A DNA stretch of 32,000 bases from Candidatus Heimdallarchaeota archaeon (lineage in GTDB: Archaea; Asgardarchaeota; Heimdallarchaeia; Heimdallarchaeales; Heimdallarchaeaceae), in the NCBI GenBank assembly GCA_030668875.1, contig DAOVER010000029.1, forward strand, positions 1 to 32,000, in the 5' to 3' direction. The notes beneath the pieces were generated by a model. That model worked only from the letters and a program-made list of their open reading frames with translations, searched no databases and had not been told where the DNA came from. The translations under genes and the position numbers were made by a program. This document shows, one piece after another, positions 27,802-32,000 of the stretch. The stretch's first letter is position 1. The number at the start of each line of letters is the position of its first letter.

Positions 27802-29424
27802 ATGTATGGTACTCCCGTTTATATTATGAAAGAAGGTACTGAGAGAACTCAAGGCAAAGATGCTCAAAGAAATAACATTCTTGCTGCTAGAGCAGTATCT
27901 GAAGCTATTCGTTCGGCTCTCGGTCCTAAAGGTATGGATAAAATGTTGATAGACAATTTTGGTGATACAACTGTGACAAATGATGGTGCTACAATTTTGA
28001 AAGAAATTGAAGTCAGCCATCCTGCAGCTAAATTCCTTATTGATTTATCTAAGACACAAGATCAAGAAACTGGTGATGGAACAACTACCGTTGTTGTTAT
28101 TGCTGGAGAATTACTTAAGCAAGCTGAAGAATTATTAGATGTTGAGGTTCATCCCAGTATCATTGTTGAAGGTTACAAGAACGCTCGATTTAAGGCTGCT
28201 GAAATTCTAGAAGAAATGGCTAAAGACGTAACATTTGAAGATGAAGACATACTCAATTATGTTTCTCAAACTTCCATGGCTTCCAAAATAATCAGTGGTG
28301 AGAAAGAATCTCTTTCTAAGATTATTGTAAAAGCAGTTAAAGCCATTACTGAAGAAAAAGATGGTGAATATGTTGCCAACATTGACAATATACAAATTCA
28401 GAAGAAAAAGGGTGGAAGTCTTGTTGATACAGAACTCATCGATGGAATTATCCTTGATAAAGAGTTTGTACATGTTGACATGCCCAAGAAGGTAGCAGGT
28501 GCTAAAATACTTCTTTTAGATAAAGGTCTTGAATTAAGCAAAACAGAAATTGACGCTAAAATTAACATTACAAGTCCTGATCAAATTCAAGCATTCTTAG
28601 ATAATGAACAAGATATGCTAAAAGAGATGGCAGATAAAATAATCGCTTCTGGTGCAAATATTGTGCTCTGTCAGAAAGGAATTGATGACATTGTTCAGCA
28701 TTATCTTGCTAAGAACGGTGTTTCCGCAGTTCGAAGGATAAAGAAAAGTGACATGGACAAATTAGCTAAAGCCACAGGAGCTCAGGTTACCACAAGTCTT
28801 GACGATTTAGATCAATACATCGGAAACGCTGCACTAGCAGAACAGAAATCCATCAGTGATGATAATATGATTTTCATTACAGGTTGCACAAATCCTAAGG
28901 CAGTATCTATTGTTATCCGCGGTGGAACAGAGATGATTGTTAATGAAGCTGAAAGAGCGATTCATGATTCGTTATGTGTCGTTAGACAAGTTATTCATGA
29001 CAAGAAAGTCGTTCCAGGTGGTGGAGCTCCAGAAATTCAAATTAGTCAAAAACTAAGTGAGTTCGCTAAAGCACAAACCAGTAAAGAACAATTAGCCATA
29101 GAAAAATTCGCTAAAGCTGTAGAAATTATTCCAAGAACTTTAGCAGAAAACGCTGGACTTGATCCTATTGATGTGCTTGCCGAATTACATGTTAAACACA
29201 ACAAAGTAGGTAATGTTTTTGGAGTTAATCCTTTTGCTAAGAAAGTAGATGACATGTCTAAACGCAATGTTTGGGAGCCAATTTCCGTCAAATTACAAGC
29301 TATCAGTAGTGCTGCTGAAGCAGCGGAAATGATCTTGAGAATTGATGACGTTATTGCTTCTAAAGAACTATCTGGTGGTGGTCCTCCCATGCCAGGTGGC
29401 GGCGGAATGCCCGAAGATTACTAG
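27802..29424 (+). CDS. ths: Thermosome (group II chaperonin) subunit
   Basis: LGPKGMDKML, TNDGATIL, GDGTTT, GGGAPE, RIDD, Gly/Met/Pro-rich tail. SD GTGAGGT at 27788-94 and TATA at 27733-40. Confidence 0.98.
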   Translation: MYGTPVYIMKEGTERTQGKDAQRNNILAARAVSEAIRSALGPKGMDKMLIDNFGDTTVTNDGATILKEIEVSHPAAKFLIDLSKTQDQETGDGTTTVVVIAGELLKQAEELLDVEVHPSIIVEGYKNARFKAAEILEEMAKDVTFEDEDILNYVSQTSMASKIISGEKESLSKIIVKAVKAITEEKDGEYVANIDNIQIQKKKGGSLVDTELIDGIILDKEFVHVDMPKKVAGAKILLLDKGLELSKTEIDAKINITSPDQIQAFLDNEQDMLKEMADKIIASGANIVLCQKGIDDIVQHYLAKNGVSAVRRIKKSDMDKLAKATGAQVTTSLDDLDQYIGNAALAEQKSISDDNMIFITGCTNPKAVSIVIRGGTEMIVNEAERAIHDSLCVVRQVIHDKKVVPGGGAPEIQISQKLSEFAKAQTSKEQLAIEKFAKAVEIIPRTLAENAGLDPIDVLAELHVKHNKVGNVFGVNPFAKKVDDMSKRNVWEPISVKLQAISSAAEAAEMILRIDDVIASKELSGGGPPMPGGGGMPEDY

Positions 29425-29485: not shown

Positions 29486-29698
29486 TCAAGAATAAGTCTT
29501 TAAGGCTTGAGTAACTTTGGTTAGCATTTCTTCAGTAACTTGATCTGATTCCATCTCTACTATTGAAACCCAAGTAGAATATGCTGCCTCTCTCACACCT
29601 CTATTCGTATCTGACATCCCTTCCACAATTATTTCTACAACTTCGTTGGTTAGTTTTAACCTACTCTCTATGGTTACTTTTTGTTGTAGATATGTCAT
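29486..29698 (-). CDS. Small HEAT-repeat-like protein (70 aa from ATG 29698; 84 aa from TTG 29740)
   Basis: IIVEGMSDTNRGVREAAYSTW matches the HEAT consensus L-D-x3-VR-x-AA. Confidence 0.5.
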   Translation of the reverse strand: MTYLQQKVTIESRLKLTNEVVEIIVEGMSDTNRGVREAAYSTWVSIVEMESDQVTEEMLTKVTQALKTYS

Positions 29699-29870
29699 CC
29701 TAGTGTTAATTTCTCTTAGGAATTTAAAACTTTTGTCCAAGAATTGTTTGAAATATGTAAAAAATTAAGAGATTAGTGTTTATCTAATATTCATTAATTA
29801 GATATGCTAAACAAAGTGTTTTTACCCAAAGTTTTTAACAAACATTCATTACTCGATTAGTGATAAGCAA

Positions 29871-30818
29871 ATGGATCTTGAAGGAATTAATAAGAAGGTA
29901 TTAGAAAAATTAGAGATTGCCGGTTTTACTATTGAAAATTTATCTATTTTAACATCAGAAGAACTTTCCTCTAAGATTGATTTAGACATTGGAGAGGCAA
30001 AAAAGATCATTAACAAAGCCCAACATAAACTTGGAATTCAACCTATTTCAGCTATGAAATTCTTGGAACTTGAATCGAAGAGAGGTAAAATCACCACATC
30101 TTCAAATGAATTTGATGGCATACTTGGTGGAGGAGTGTGGACTCAAGAGCTAACAGAATTAGCTGGTGGTTTTGGTTCCGGTAAAACACAGCTTTGTTTT
30201 CAATTATGCATAAACGTACAATTGCCTTTTGAAGAAGGGGGATTAGAAGGCAATGCCTTTTTTATTGATACTGAGAGGACGTTTTCACCACGAAGAGTGG
30301 TTGAAATGGCATCATACAGAGAATTGGATGTTGAAGAAATACTCAACAATATTTACATCAGCTCAGCAGTCAATACTCATCATCTATTTAGTATAGTCGA
30401 CCAATTAGACGAAATTATACCAGAGAAAAACATTAAATTGCTGATTATTGATTCTTTAGCTTCACATTTTCGTTCCGAATTTATAGGTAAAGGAAAACTT
30501 GTTGAGAGACAACAAAAACTCATGAAAATTGCTGAGCTGCTGATTATGATTGCTGTAAAATATGATATTGCAATTGTTGTAACCAACCAAATTATTGCTA
30601 ACGTTGAAGAGTTCTTATTTGGAAGCCCTGAAGAACCTGCTTTAGGTTTTGCTTGGGCTCATCGACCTCAACAGAGAATATTTCTAAGAAAATCAAGAGG
30701 TAGTTCAAGAATTGCTAGATTGTTTGATAGTTCTAGAATGCCCGAAAGAGAAGCATTGTTCTATGTAACAGAAAGTGGCATAACTGATGCCCCTTACTCT
30801 ACAGAACTATTTGAATAG
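29871..30818 (+). CDS. RadA/Rad51-family protein with RAD51-paralog-like signatures
   Basis: N-terminal HhH domain, Walker A GGFGSGKT, IDTERTF, Walker B LLIIDS, TNQ, RIARLFDS. Confidence 0.92.
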   Translation: MDLEGINKKVLEKLEIAGFTIENLSILTSEELSSKIDLDIGEAKKIINKAQHKLGIQPISAMKFLELESKRGKITTSSNEFDGILGGGVWTQELTELAGGFGSGKTQLCFQLCINVQLPFEEGGLEGNAFFIDTERTFSPRRVVEMASYRELDVEEILNNIYISSAVNTHHLFSIVDQLDEIIPEKNIKLLIIDSLASHFRSEFIGKGKLVERQQKLMKIAELLIMIAVKYDIAIVVTNQIIANVEEFLFGSPEEPALGFAWAHRPQQRIFLRKSRGSSRIARLFDSSRMPEREALFYVTESGITDAPYSTELFE

Positions 30819-30877: not shown

Positions 30878-31177
30878 TTACTCGGCTGCTGGTTTATTCT
30901 TTGTAGCAGAATAAACACTTGTTCTTTTTGATTTACTGATGCATTTAATAATGTTGTTTGCTTCAGCTTCTCTGAGAATTCTTTTTGCAGCGCTAACTCT
31001 AATATTATACTTATCTGCAAGGTAAGCTGGTGTTACTCCTTTTGCCCTTGATAATTCTCCATCAATCTTTTTCTTTGTCTCTTCATCTGGAGAAAGATCA
31101 CGAATGACAGGGATGAATTCGAACACTAAACCAAACTTTTTCTTCTTTCTTACAACTTTCCTCTCGCGTAATGACAT
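30878..31177 (-). CDS. rps25e: Ribosomal protein eS25 (S25e)
   Basis: Basic N-terminus and winged-helix core VTPAYLADKYNIRVSAAKRILREAE...IIK...VY. Confidence 0.85.
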   Translation of the reverse strand: MSLRERKVVRKKKKFGLVFEFIPVIRDLSPDEETKKKIDGELSRAKGVTPAYLADKYNIRVSAAKRILREAEANNIIKCISKSKRTSVYSATKNKPAAE

Positions 31178-31276: not shown

Positions 31277-32000
31277 ATGGATAAATTGGAGTTGTTACTA
31301 AATACATTCAAAGGGGGGAATACAAATTATCCTTTGTTCAGTTTGTGGAAGCATTTTCCACATGATGACAGAAACTTTGAGAGATTAGCTGAAGCTCACA
31401 TTAAATTCTATGAGCATCATCAATTCGATTTGATGAAAATATCTCCTCACGGAAGATATCCTGTTGTTGATTATGGATGCAAAGTAGCAAAAGAATTTGA
31501 CTCAATTACTGGCAGCACAAGCTGTGAAGAATGTACAATACACACTTTTGAGGACTGGGAAGCATTAGAACAAGTTAATGTAAATGACGGGGAATTTGGT
31601 AATCAAGTAAAAACTGTCAAAATATTAGGTAAAAAACTAGAAGAGCTACCTAAAATGATGACTATATTTTCTCCTTTGATGGTTGCTTCTAAAATGGATA
31701 ATAATCTTGTTGCACATATGCGAGAGGATAAAGCAAAATTAAAAAAAGCATTTTTTGTAATATACAAAGATCTTTTAGAATTTGCTCAATCATCAATTGA
31801 TGCTGGTGCAAATGGATTATTCATTGCATCACAACATTTCCGAAAAACTGATTTAACTTGGGAAGAAGTAGATAATTTTGAGATTTACTTTATCAAAAAA
31901 TTAATACAAGAAACTAGAAAGAAATCAGATTTCAACATCATACATATTCATGGACAAGAAATCAATTTCAATAAGGTTGTAGAAACTATTGATGTAGATG
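31277..32000 (+). CDS. Uroporphyrinogen decarboxylase (URO-D)-like TIM-barrel protein, 3'-truncated; absent from the ORF track
   Basis: Manual translation from ATG 31277 is open to the window end: MDKLELLL...LWKHFPHDD...DLMKISPHGRY...TIFSPL...DAGANGLFIASQ...IIHIHG. Confidence 0.8.
   Translation, partial: MDKLELLLNTFKGGNTNYPLFSLWKHFPHDDRNFERLAEAHIKFYEHHQFDLMKISPHGRYPVVDYGCKVAKEFDSITGSTSCEECTIHTFEDWEALEQVNVNDGEFGNQVKTVKILGKKLEELPKMMTIFSPLMVASKMDNNLVAHMREDKAKLKKAFFVIYKDLLEFAQSSIDAGANGLFIASQHFRKTDLTWEEVDNFEIYFIKKLIQETRKKSDFNIIHIHGQEINFNKVVETIDVD

What the first reader, a model, noticed from the sequence alone, without database searches (positions are those of the whole stretch)
29871..30818. RadA-architecture protein carrying eukaryotic RAD51-paralog signatures
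Seen: the segment after loop L2 reads EPALGFAWAHRPQQR (30636-30662), and the inter-domain linker reads LGIQPISA, with Pro58 where RadA has the Phe of FxxA. Established (recalled): true RadA/RAD51/DMC1 have PIGGxIxAH and an FxxA polymerisation motif, whereas RAD51B/C/D and XRCC3 have (P)ALGxxW (e.g. PALGESWGH). The N-terminal HhH domain, Walker A/B and catalytic Glu are retained, unlike archaeal RadB, which lacks the N-domain. Inference: a filament-capping or mediator paralog that may be related to the ancestor of the eukaryotic RAD51 paralogs, rather than the housekeeping RadA.
Basis: partly seen in the sequence, partly recalled or inferred. Interest (0 to 1): 0.75.

Follow-up and report, generated by a model that had tools for sequence, protein, structure and literature searches.

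The report
Heimdall RadA paralog with RAD51-paralog signature
This gene encodes a second, conserved RadA-like recombination protein of Heimdall-group Asgard archaea that shares a four-residue signature otherwise seen only in the eukaryotic RAD51 paralogs (RAD51B/C/D, XRCC3), so it may be their closest archaeal relative, but the link rests on those few positions.

Summary
Window 29871-30818(+) encodes a 315-aa RadA-architecture protein with PALGFAWAHRP after loop L2 and Pro58 where RadA/RAD51 have the FxxA Phe. It is not the housekeeping recombinase: the same genome has a canonical RadA, a third RadA-like gene and a RadB-like gene. It belongs to a tight, single-copy family under strong purifying selection. 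The family was found in 55 of 60 sampled genomes of its own class (Heimdallarchaeia by record names) and 3 of 190 other Asgard genomes.

A profile made only from human RAD51B/C/D/XRCC3 motif peptides separates all 123 family members from all 168 RadA/RAD51/DMC1 sequences. Four columns (A197, A221, L258, W262) are shared by this family and the eukaryotic paralogs, and not by RADalpha or RadB-like proteins.

ML trees place the eukaryotic paralogs next to this family (99/98; 94/75 without the motif). That signal disappears when all four columns are removed, AU tests reject no alternative, and adding more RadB-like sequences blurs the order.

Function (an accessory, RAD51-paralog-like partner of RadA) is inferred, not shown. 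The scan noted the same motif before in another genome. The published library I searched describes Asgard RadA paralog clades but not this link.

The parts
29871..30818 (+). Whole gene: 315-aa RadA-architecture paralog ('PALG family'), stop codon included
   Evidence: ORF list and translation. Pfam Rad51 1.2e-68. NCBIfam NF003301 RadA 338.8 bits (cut-off 259), but TIGR02236 313.8 bits is below its cut-off of 361.15. dN/dS 0.03-0.04 against close orthologs.
29871..30032 (+). N-terminal helical (HhH-type) domain, residues 1-54
   Evidence: The NCBIfam RadA models align from residue 2. The AF2 model has helices 8-16, 21-24, 29-36 and 40-54 with pLDDT about 90.
30030..30053 (+). Inter-domain linker LGIQPISA: the polymerisation-motif position with Pro58 in place of Phe; Ala61 is kept
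   Evidence: P at this column in 16 of 16 family rows. F in 7 of 7 RAD51/DMC1 rows and 35 of 49 archaeal RadA rows; the other archaeal rows are mostly L, I or W (11 of the 14 listed). K, L, I, V or M in RAD51C/D/XRCC3/RAD51B. P58 is at least 90% conserved in A1.
30165..30191 (+). Walker A, GGFGSGKTQ (residues 99-107)
   Evidence: G104, K105 and Q107 are invariant and T106 is nearly invariant in the family alignment A1.
30438..30461 (+). Walker B strand LLIIDSLA (190-197), including signature residue Ala197
   Evidence: D194, S195 and A197 are invariant in A1. A197: family 16/16, eukaryotic paralogs 13/15, RADalpha 1/56, RadB-like 0/9.
30486..30515 (+). DNA-binding loop L1, GKGKLVERQQ (206-215)
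   Evidence: R213 and Q215 are invariant and Q214 is nearly invariant. It aligns with RadA GRGxLxxRQQ.
30531..30533 (+). Signature residue Ala221 in the helix after L1
   Evidence: A or G in family 16/16 and eukaryotic paralogs 15/15; L, I, M or V in RADalpha 56/56 and RadB-like 9/9.
30588..30635 (+). Loop L2 (residues 240-255), the same length as in RadA, acidic (NVEEFLFGSPEE)
   Evidence: Aligns without gaps to RadA L2. Disordered in the model, pLDDT below 50 at 242-257.
30636..30677 (+). Post-L2 motif PALGFAWAHRPQQR (256-269), holding signature residues Leu258 and Trp262; His264 is kept
   Evidence: P256, L258, G259, A261, W262, H264, R265, P266 and R269 are invariant in A1. L258 and W262 are shared with 15 of 15 RAD51B/C/D/XRCC3 rows and 0 of 56 RADalpha rows. 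Predicted helix 256-263.

Best explanation
The gene encodes a member of a conserved, single-copy RadA-paralog family that is almost confined to Heimdallarchaeia. It sits beside, and does not replace, the canonical RadA. It keeps the full RadA build: N-terminal helical domain, linker, an ATPase core with Walker A/B and the catalytic Glu, the L1 Arg-Gln-Gln, an L2 of normal length, and the trans-acting His. So it most likely still binds ATP and single-stranded DNA within a RadA-type assembly (inferred). It has lost the Phe that a RadA/RAD51 protomer inserts into its neighbour. It also carries the constellation A197/A221/L258/W262, otherwise seen only in eukaryotic RAD51B/C/D/XRCC3. The most likely role is therefore an accessory, RAD51-paralog-like subunit that joins RadA filaments (at an end or at nucleation) and modulates them, rather than forming the bulk filament (inferred by analogy with XRCC3-complex capping, PMC7618403). 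In evolutionary terms it is the best current candidate for the archaeal lineage closest to the N-domain-bearing eukaryotic RAD51 paralogs. That rests on four shared positions, shared architecture and taxonomic distribution.
For: Paralog status: three Rad51-family genes plus a RadB-like gene lie in the own genome, and the C32 copy is the canonical one. In five other Heimdall genomes (four of them complete chromosomes) the family member always co-occurs with higher-scoring RadA copies. Family coherence: 120 homologs all carry the motif and Pro58. Constraint: dN/dS 0.03-0.04. Distribution: 55 of 60 genomes of its class, 3 of 190 elsewhere in the phylum, one copy each, reversed control 0; named records are almost all Heimdall, Hod, Kari or Wukong. 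Signature: the paralog-only motif HMM scores 123/123 family members at 10.9-24.2 bits and 168/168 RADalpha at 7.6 bits or less. The same profile hits only RAD51B/C/D, XRCC3 and Rad57 in the PDB. There are four exclusive shared columns against one for RAD51/DMC1, and the RadB-likes lack them. Compared with the same genome's canonical RadA, the protein scores lower to every RADalpha structure but higher to XRCC3, RAD51C, RAD51B and Rad57. Trees: family + paralogs 99/98 with the full core, 94/75 without L2 and the motif, 94/81 with long rows also removed. Without the family, the paralogs fall to the long RadB-like branch in an unfinished (quick-tree) search. The best-likelihood tree found holds family + paralogs + RadB-like as one clade.
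Against: Removing the L2/motif block plus columns 197 and 221 abolishes the grouping; the paralogs then sit unsupported among archaeal RadA. The phylogenetic support is therefore not independent of the four characters. These may form one co-adapted structural cluster and could be convergent. AU tests do not reject RAD51/DMC1 + paralogs as a clade (p 0.087 and 0.21). With nine RadB-likes included, bootstrap support for family + paralogs drops to 40, and a paralogs + RadB tree is 7.8 lnL better than the free tree. Free searches missed better trees, so the support values are rough. Methanopyrus RadA also falls near the family, a sign of attraction between divergent sequences. Paralog sampling was 15 sequences, nearly all mammalian, with no XRCC2, Rad55/57, plants or protists. 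By overall similarity and fold the protein is RadA/RAD51-like, and it passes one NCBIfam RadA equivalog cut-off. All catalytic and L1 residues are intact, so a genuine recombinase activity is not excluded. No conserved neighbouring partner gene was found.
Confidence: 0.5

Rival explanations
1. It is a second genuine strand-exchange recombinase: a specialised RadA isoform that polymerises through a modified Pro-x-x-Ala linker. On this reading it is not an accessory factor.
For: Complete RadA architecture with an intact Walker A/B, catalytic Glu, L1 R-Q-Q, normal-length L2 and His264. The best PDB sequence and fold matches are RadA and RAD51. It passes the NF003301 RadA cut-off. Ala61 of the FxxA motif is kept. 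Ferlez et al. (bioRxiv 10.1101/2025.02.19.639135) treat diverse Asgard groups as recombinases and note rare Val-Glu L2 pairs; this protein has such a pair (NVEE).
Against: The Phe that drives RadA/RAD51 polymerisation is replaced by Pro in every member. It always co-occurs with a more canonical RadA. It scores below the stricter TIGR02236 cut-off. It shares its derived residues with non-recombinase paralogs.
Confidence: 0.3
2. The resemblance to the RAD51 paralogs is convergent. On this reading the family is a Heimdallarchaeia-specific duplicate of RadA, and the eukaryotic paralogs derive from the RadB lineage or from a duplication inside eukaryotes.
For: The tree signal vanishes once the four columns are removed. 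AU tests do not reject RAD51/DMC1 + paralogs. Paralogs + RadB-like fits better than the free tree, and that pairing appears when the family is omitted, matching the published RADbeta concept (PMC3637515). The four positions may be one co-adapted packing cluster, which I could not measure. Outside those columns the family is closer to RadA than to any paralog.
Against: Identical states at four positions (A, A/G, L, W) in 16/16 family rows and 13-15 of 15 paralog rows across four paralog families, in 0-1 of 56 RADalpha rows and 0-1 of 9 RadB-like rows. N-domain architecture is shared with RAD51B/C/D/XRCC3 and is absent in RadB (PMC7618403). The family is concentrated in the archaeal class from which eukaryotes are thought to derive (Eme et al. 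2023, as cited in PMC12722695). The short-branched family pulls the paralogs away from the very long RadB-like branch, which is the opposite of long-branch attraction. The best-likelihood tree keeps all three lineages together.
Confidence: 0.45

Closest known systems
Archaeal RadA / eukaryotic RAD51-DMC1 (RADalpha recombinases)
   Same: Same two-domain architecture and length. 42% identity to the own-genome RadA. Best PDB hits are Sulfolobus and Pyrococcus RadA at 253-257 bits and RAD51 at 200 bits. Foldseek top 50 are all RadA, RAD51 or DMC1. Walker A/B, catalytic Glu, L1 RQQ and His264 are conserved.
   Different: Pro replaces the polymerisation Phe. P-A-L-G-x-A-W-x-H-R-P replaces P-x-G-G-x-x-(I/V/L/M)-x-H. 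A197 and A221 replace T/I/M/V and L/I/M/V. It scores below the TIGR02236 cut-off. It is an extra copy beside a canonical RadA.
Eukaryotic RAD51 paralogs RAD51B, RAD51C, RAD51D, XRCC3 (RADbeta)
   Same: (P/A)ALGxxW after L2, small residues at positions 197 and 221, no Phe 'ball', and an N-terminal domain plus RecA core (PMC7618403). They are the ML neighbour of this family when the signature columns are kept.
   Different: Overall similarity is far lower (81-117 bits, against 170-257 bits for RADalpha). The paralogs have long, variable L2 regions (RAD51B, XRCC3) and partly degenerate ATP-site residues: position 264 is F in RAD51D and N in XRCC3. Heteromeric complexes are known for the paralogs and nothing is known here. 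The grouping is not significant by AU tests and is lost without the four columns.
Archaeal RadB and the Asgard RadB-like proteins
   Same: An accessory RecA-family paralog that co-exists with RadA. It joins this family and the eukaryotic paralogs in the best-likelihood tree.
   Different: RadB-likes are about 210-245 aa with no N-terminal domain. They carry the RADalpha states at all four signature columns. This protein scores 96.5 bits to TIGR02237 against a cut-off of 172.4.
Published 'second RadA clade' of Asgard archaea (Matsuo et al. 2025, PMC12722695; 18 Asgard recombinase groups of Ferlez et al., bioRxiv 10.1101/2025.02.19.639135)
   Same: Both papers report RadA paralog clades in Heimdall, Gerd and Njord archaea that co-occur with other RadA copies in the same MAGs. 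This family is very probably one of those clades.
   Different: Neither paper includes the eukaryotic RAD51 paralogs or mentions the motif: 'paralog', 'Rad55' and 'XRCC3' occur 0 times in Ferlez et al.. I could not map this family to their clade numbers.

Membership tests
RadA/RAD51/DMC1 recombinase (RADalpha) | N-terminal HhH domain + RecA core with Walker A/B and catalytic Glu | tested here: met
   NCBIfam RadA models align over residues 2-306. Invariant G104, K105, D133, E135 and D194. Model pTM 0.80.
RadA/RAD51/DMC1 recombinase (RADalpha) | FxxA polymerisation motif with Phe (or another large hydrophobic residue) in the linker | tested here: not met
   Pro58 in 16/16 aligned family rows and in the 120-sequence census. 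F in 42 of 56 RADalpha rows.
RadA/RAD51/DMC1 recombinase (RADalpha) | Post-L2 P-x-G-G-x-x-aliphatic-x-H | tested here: not met
   L258 and W262 here; G and aliphatic in 56/56 RADalpha rows.
RadA/RAD51/DMC1 recombinase (RADalpha) | Curated equivalog score cut-offs | tested here: inconclusive
   NF003301: 338.8 bits, above the cut-off of 259. TIGR02236: 313.8 bits, below 361.15. The own canonical RadA passes both, at 432.7 and 412.6 bits.
RadA/RAD51/DMC1 recombinase (RADalpha) | Self-filament formation and strand exchange | not testable with these tools
   Needs biochemistry.
Eukaryotic RAD51 paralogs (RAD51B/C/D, XRCC3; RADbeta) | (P/A)ALGxxW motif after L2 | tested here: met
   An HMM built from human paralog peptides scores P0001 at 13.1 bits and the family at 10.9-24.2 bits, against 7.6 bits or less for RADalpha. 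The motif profile hits only paralogs in the PDB.
Eukaryotic RAD51 paralogs (RAD51B/C/D, XRCC3; RADbeta) | N-terminal domain + linker + RecA core (absent in XRCC2 and RadB) | tested here: met
   paralog architecture as described in PMC7618403.
Eukaryotic RAD51 paralogs (RAD51B/C/D, XRCC3; RADbeta) | Monophyly with the paralogs in a phylogeny | tested here: inconclusive
   99/98, 94/75 and 94/81 in three ML trees, but 40/89 with more RadB-likes. The grouping is lost without the four signature columns. AU tests do not reject alternatives.
Eukaryotic RAD51 paralogs (RAD51B/C/D, XRCC3; RADbeta) | Acts in a heteromeric complex with the recombinase, or on its filament | not testable with these tools
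   The single complex prediction returned no verdict.
Archaeal RadB | Core-only protein of about 210-240 aa without an N-terminal domain; TIGR02237 cut-off | tested here: not met
   315 aa with an N-domain; TIGR02237 96.5 bits, below 172.4. A separate RadB-like gene exists in the genome.
aRadC / KaiC-like archaeal paralogs | KaiC-type core, no HhH domain | tested here: not met
   Only weak KaiC matches: Pfam 29.3 bits over residues 76-201, NCBIfam KaiC models 18-21 bits. Separate KaiC-like genes lie on C9 and C71.

The most novel reading that the evidence does not exclude
The family is the surviving archaeal representative of the lineage that gave rise to the N-domain-bearing eukaryotic RAD51 paralogs (RAD51B/C/D, XRCC3/Rad57). 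If so, the recombinase/mediator split (RADalpha/RADbeta) and a RAD51-paralog-type filament modulator already existed in the Heimdallarchaeial ancestor of eukaryotes, and RadB is only a more distant, N-domain-less offshoot.
Probability: 0.4. Interest if true: 0.85.

Novelty: new variant of a known kind. Interest (0 to 1): 0.7.

Why it matters
RAD51 paralogs are essential mediators of homologous recombination and are cancer genes in humans. Their origin is usually traced, weakly, to euryarchaeal RadB. [quoted passage not shown] It would add a recombination component to the list of eukaryotic signature proteins. It would also give a simple, single-gene archaeal model for how paralogs modulate recombinase filaments. 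The same trees place a different Heimdall paralog (C68 type) next to RAD51/DMC1, so both eukaryotic branches might have separate Asgard counterparts. If the signature turns out to be convergent, it still marks four positions that distinguish mediators from recombinases.

Tried and rejected
(1) Short-query PDB searches gave nothing: a 23-aa single sequence and a 25-column profile. The 20-column family profile hit only RAD51D, at E 1.4.

(2) A literature search for the motif strings found 0 papers.

I then used 44-aa peptides. They were validated afterwards: 100% identity and coverage to human RAD51C and hominoid XRCC3 records, and an exact PDB alignment for RAD51B.

(4) Complex prediction of this protein with the own canonical RadA gave no verdict (score 0.01). 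This is neither evidence for nor against binding.

(5) No RNA holder was listed for the locus. The DNA holders are marine-sediment metagenomes that may be the source of the assembly.

(6) Euryarchaeal RadB could not be fetched: the M. kandleri record is not held as a genome handle. Only Asgard RadB-likes were used.

(7) A conserved operon partner was looked for. The neighbours (thermosome, eS25, URO-D-like) are shared by only about 20 of 52 loci of at least 7 kb, those of close kin.

(8) I considered that it might be the sole or housekeeping RadA. This is rejected.

(9) I considered RadB or aRadC membership. This is rejected on architecture and scores.

(10) The sister position of Methanopyrus RadA to the family is treated as attraction between divergent sequences, not as history.

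Full report
THE OBSERVATION

Window 29871-30818 (+) is an ATG-initiated ORF of 315 codons. Its translation has:
- LGIQPISA at residues 54-61, with Pro58.
- GGFGSGKTQ (Walker A) at 99-107.
- IDTER, with Glu135.
- LLIIDSLA (Walker B) at 190-197.
- GKGKLVERQQ (loop L1) at 206-215.
- An L2 of normal length, followed by PALGFAWAHRPQQR at 256-269.

Pfam assigns Rad51 (1.2e-68). NCBIfam aligns the RadA equivalogs over residues 2-306. The score of 338.8 bits passes NF003301 (cut-off 259), but 313.8 bits fails TIGR02236 (cut-off 361.15). RadB scores only 96.5 bits against a cut-off of 172.4. Every descriptive element of the finding is correct.

IT IS A PARALOG, NOT THE HOUSEKEEPING RadA

The window's genome is 3.23 Mb in 99 contigs, 92% complete. 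Homolog names place it in Heimdallarchaeaceae. It holds three full-length Rad51-family genes:
- Contig 32: a 370-aa protein with GFQSA and FPIGGHIVAH. It passes both RadA equivalogs, at 432.7 and 412.6 bits.
- Contig 68: a 438-aa protein with an extended N-terminus, DFVSA and AIGGNILGH.
- The window's gene.

A 214-aa RadB-like gene and KaiC-like genes are also present. Five other Heimdall genomes, four of them complete chromosomes, carry 3-6 Rad51-family genes each. In all of them the window-type copy co-occurs with higher-scoring RadA copies.

A COHERENT FAMILY

- All 120 closest clusters in the 5.8-billion-protein collection share PALG[FYLQ]AW[AG]HRP and a Pro at the Phe position.
- Among the 150 best 50%-identity representatives, only three carry the motif. 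The rest are ordinary RadA, RAD51 or DMC1 with GG.
- In a 30-sequence alignment (A1), P256, L258, G259, A261, W262, H264, R265, P266 and R269 are invariant, as are the ATPase and L1 residues.
- dN/dS against close orthologs is 0.03-0.04.
- Named genome records with the gene are almost all Heimdall-, Hod-, Kari- or Wukongarchaeota, with a few probably mislabelled bins.
- A DNA pattern for the motif occurs exactly once in 59 of 250 Asgard species genomes. That is 55 of 60 in the window's class and 3 of 190 elsewhere. The reversed control pattern gives 0 hits.
- Gene neighbours (thermosome upstream, eS25 and a URO-D-like gene downstream) are conserved only among close kin.

THE RAD51-PARALOG SIGNATURE IS REAL

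- The family's 20-column motif profile finds only human RAD51D (KPALGRSWSFVPSTRILL) in the PDB, weakly, at E 1.4.
- The reciprocal test is stronger. A profile made from four human paralog peptides hits only RAD51B, RAD51C, RAD51D, XRCC3, their Alvinella orthologs and yeast Rad57. It hits no RAD51, DMC1 or RadA.
- Compared with the canonical RadA of the same genome, the window protein scores lower against every RADalpha structure. Human RAD51 is 200.6 against 273.1 bits, and Pyrococcus RadA is 252.9 against 337.2 bits.
- It scores higher against every paralog listed. Alvinella XRCC3 is 117.0 against 104.5, RAD51C 106.9 against 83.3, RAD51B 93.2 against 85.1, and Rad57 81.7 against 74.7 bits.
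- After fetching full-length RAD51B/C/D/XRCC3, a column census found four positions where the family and the paralogs share a state that RADalpha lacks:
  - A197: family 16/16, paralogs 13/15, RADalpha 1/56.
  - A or G at 221: family 16/16, paralogs 15/15, RADalpha 0/56.
  - L258: family 16/16, paralogs 15/15, RADalpha 0/56.
  - W262: family 16/16, paralogs 15/15, RADalpha 0/56.
- Only one column is shared in this way between RAD51/DMC1 and the paralogs.
- Nine Asgard RadB-likes carry the RADalpha states at all four positions.
- The paralogs also lack the Phe: K, L, I, V or M appear at position 58.

PHYLOGENY

All trees used LG+C20+F+G4 (PMSF) on the RecA core.

- With 88 rows, the split {family + paralogs} has 99/98 support.
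- With the L2 and motif block removed it keeps 94/75.
- With long rows and the outgroup also removed it has 94/81.
- RAD51/DMC1 instead group with the C68-type Heimdall paralog (92/91 and 87/74).
- Without the family, the paralogs join the very long RadB-like branch, the classical RADbeta picture. This run returned only the quick tree, because the careful search did not finish.

Four results limit the conclusion:
1. AU tests do not reject RAD51/DMC1 + paralogs (delta lnL 30.7, p 0.087; delta lnL 25.2, p 0.21).
2. With nine RadB-likes, the free tree still pairs family and paralogs, but at 40/89. Constrained searches found better trees: paralogs + RadB at +7.8 lnL and family + paralogs + RadB at +21.1 lnL. 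In both, the paralog-RadB pair sits beside the family.
3. Methanopyrus RadA lands next to the family, a warning of attraction among divergent sequences.
4. When columns 197 and 221 are removed together with the motif block, the paralogs leave the family. They then sit unsupported among archaeal RadA.

The tree signal is therefore essentially the four characters. The rest of the core is uninformative about where the paralogs attach.

STRUCTURE AND MECHANISM

The AF2 model is confident (pLDDT 84.8, pTM 0.80). L2 is disordered, and the motif forms a short helix at 256-263. All top Foldseek hits are RadA, RAD51 or DMC1.

In RAD51 filaments, Phe86 of one protomer enters a hydrophobic pocket of the next. 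XRCC3 engages RAD51 differently, and the XRCC3 complex caps filament 5' ends (PMC7618403).

By analogy, a protein that keeps the ATP and ssDNA contacts but lacks the Phe is more likely to join or terminate a RadA filament than to build one. This is inference. The one complex prediction returned no verdict, and no RNA data were found.

WHAT IS KNOWN

- Matsuo et al. 2025 (PMC12722695) describe two RadA clades in Heimdall, Gerd and Njord archaea.
- Ferlez et al. (bioRxiv 10.1101/2025.02.19.639135) describe 18 Asgard recombinase groups.
- Neither paper includes the RAD51 paralogs.
- The accepted RADbeta concept links the paralogs to RadB (PMC3637515).
- A 2026 preprint notes in passing an ESP-catalogue Asgard cluster whose dominant eukaryotic member is RAD51D (PMC13734099).
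- I found no paper stating the motif or the link.
- This scan's first stage noted the same motif in another genome. That site matches a pattern hit.

VERDICT

The gene is an accessory-type RadA paralog family typical of Heimdallarchaeia. Its relationship to the eukaryotic RAD51 paralogs is supported by a specific four-residue signature, shared architecture and taxonomic distribution, but it is not statistically secured and may be convergent. I put the evolutionary link at about 0.4-0.45 and the accessory (non-recombinase) role at about 0.55.

Noticed in passing
Own genome G000 contig C68:39736-40695 (+); locus L009:1156-2472: A third RadA-like gene of 438 aa with an extended N-terminus that seems to hold a duplicated HhH region, DFVSA and AIGGNILGHW. 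Its orthologs in other Heimdall genomes form a 100/100 clade that is the ML sister of eukaryotic RAD51/DMC1 (92/91 and 87/74).
   Followed up: partly
Loci L103 and L106 (G004, G003); L108 and L109 (G001, G002): Two further Heimdall RadA-paralog classes. One has Walker A GENGCGKTQ and ...GGNVVGHTVTTRLMIRKGK. The other is a long-branched 365-aa class with GSPQSGKTQ. Heimdall genomes thus hold 3-6 Rad51-family genes.
   Followed up: no
G004:C1:2979401-2980105 (-), locus L100: In the complete chromosome CP070760.1 (bin272), the family member lies in a frame reported as open for 1964 aa, and I extracted an 821-aa stop-free segment. This could be a fusion or just a long stop-free upstream stretch.
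   Followed up: no
Own genome G000 contig C9:16342-16983 (-); locus L004:1342-1983: A 214-aa RadB-like gene without an N-domain (TIGR02237 82.7 bits, below cut-off). Matches to it at E <= 1e-8 were found in 41 of 101 sampled Asgard genomes; some of the weaker matches are RadA-sized rather than RadB-like.
   Followed up: partly
window 27802-29424 (+), 29486-29740 (-), 30878-31177 (-), 31277-31999 (+): The neighbours are a thermosome subunit (Cpn60_TCP1, 601 bits), an 84-aa ORF with a weak sub-threshold CLASP_N/HEAT-like match, ribosomal protein eS25, and a URO-D-family protein that runs off the window.
   Followed up: partly
Proteins P0105, P0109; loci L026, L053, L085: Family members sit in records labelled Zixibacteria, Methanobacteriota/Euryarchaeota, Bathyarchaeia or Thorarchaeota. 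Given the otherwise strict Heimdall distribution, these are probably mislabelled or mis-binned MAG contigs.
   Followed up: no
Protein P0163 (Methanopyrus kandleri RadA): It clusters as sister to the family in several trees (95*; 99/81). This is biologically implausible and is read as an artefact of divergent sequences.
   Followed up: partly
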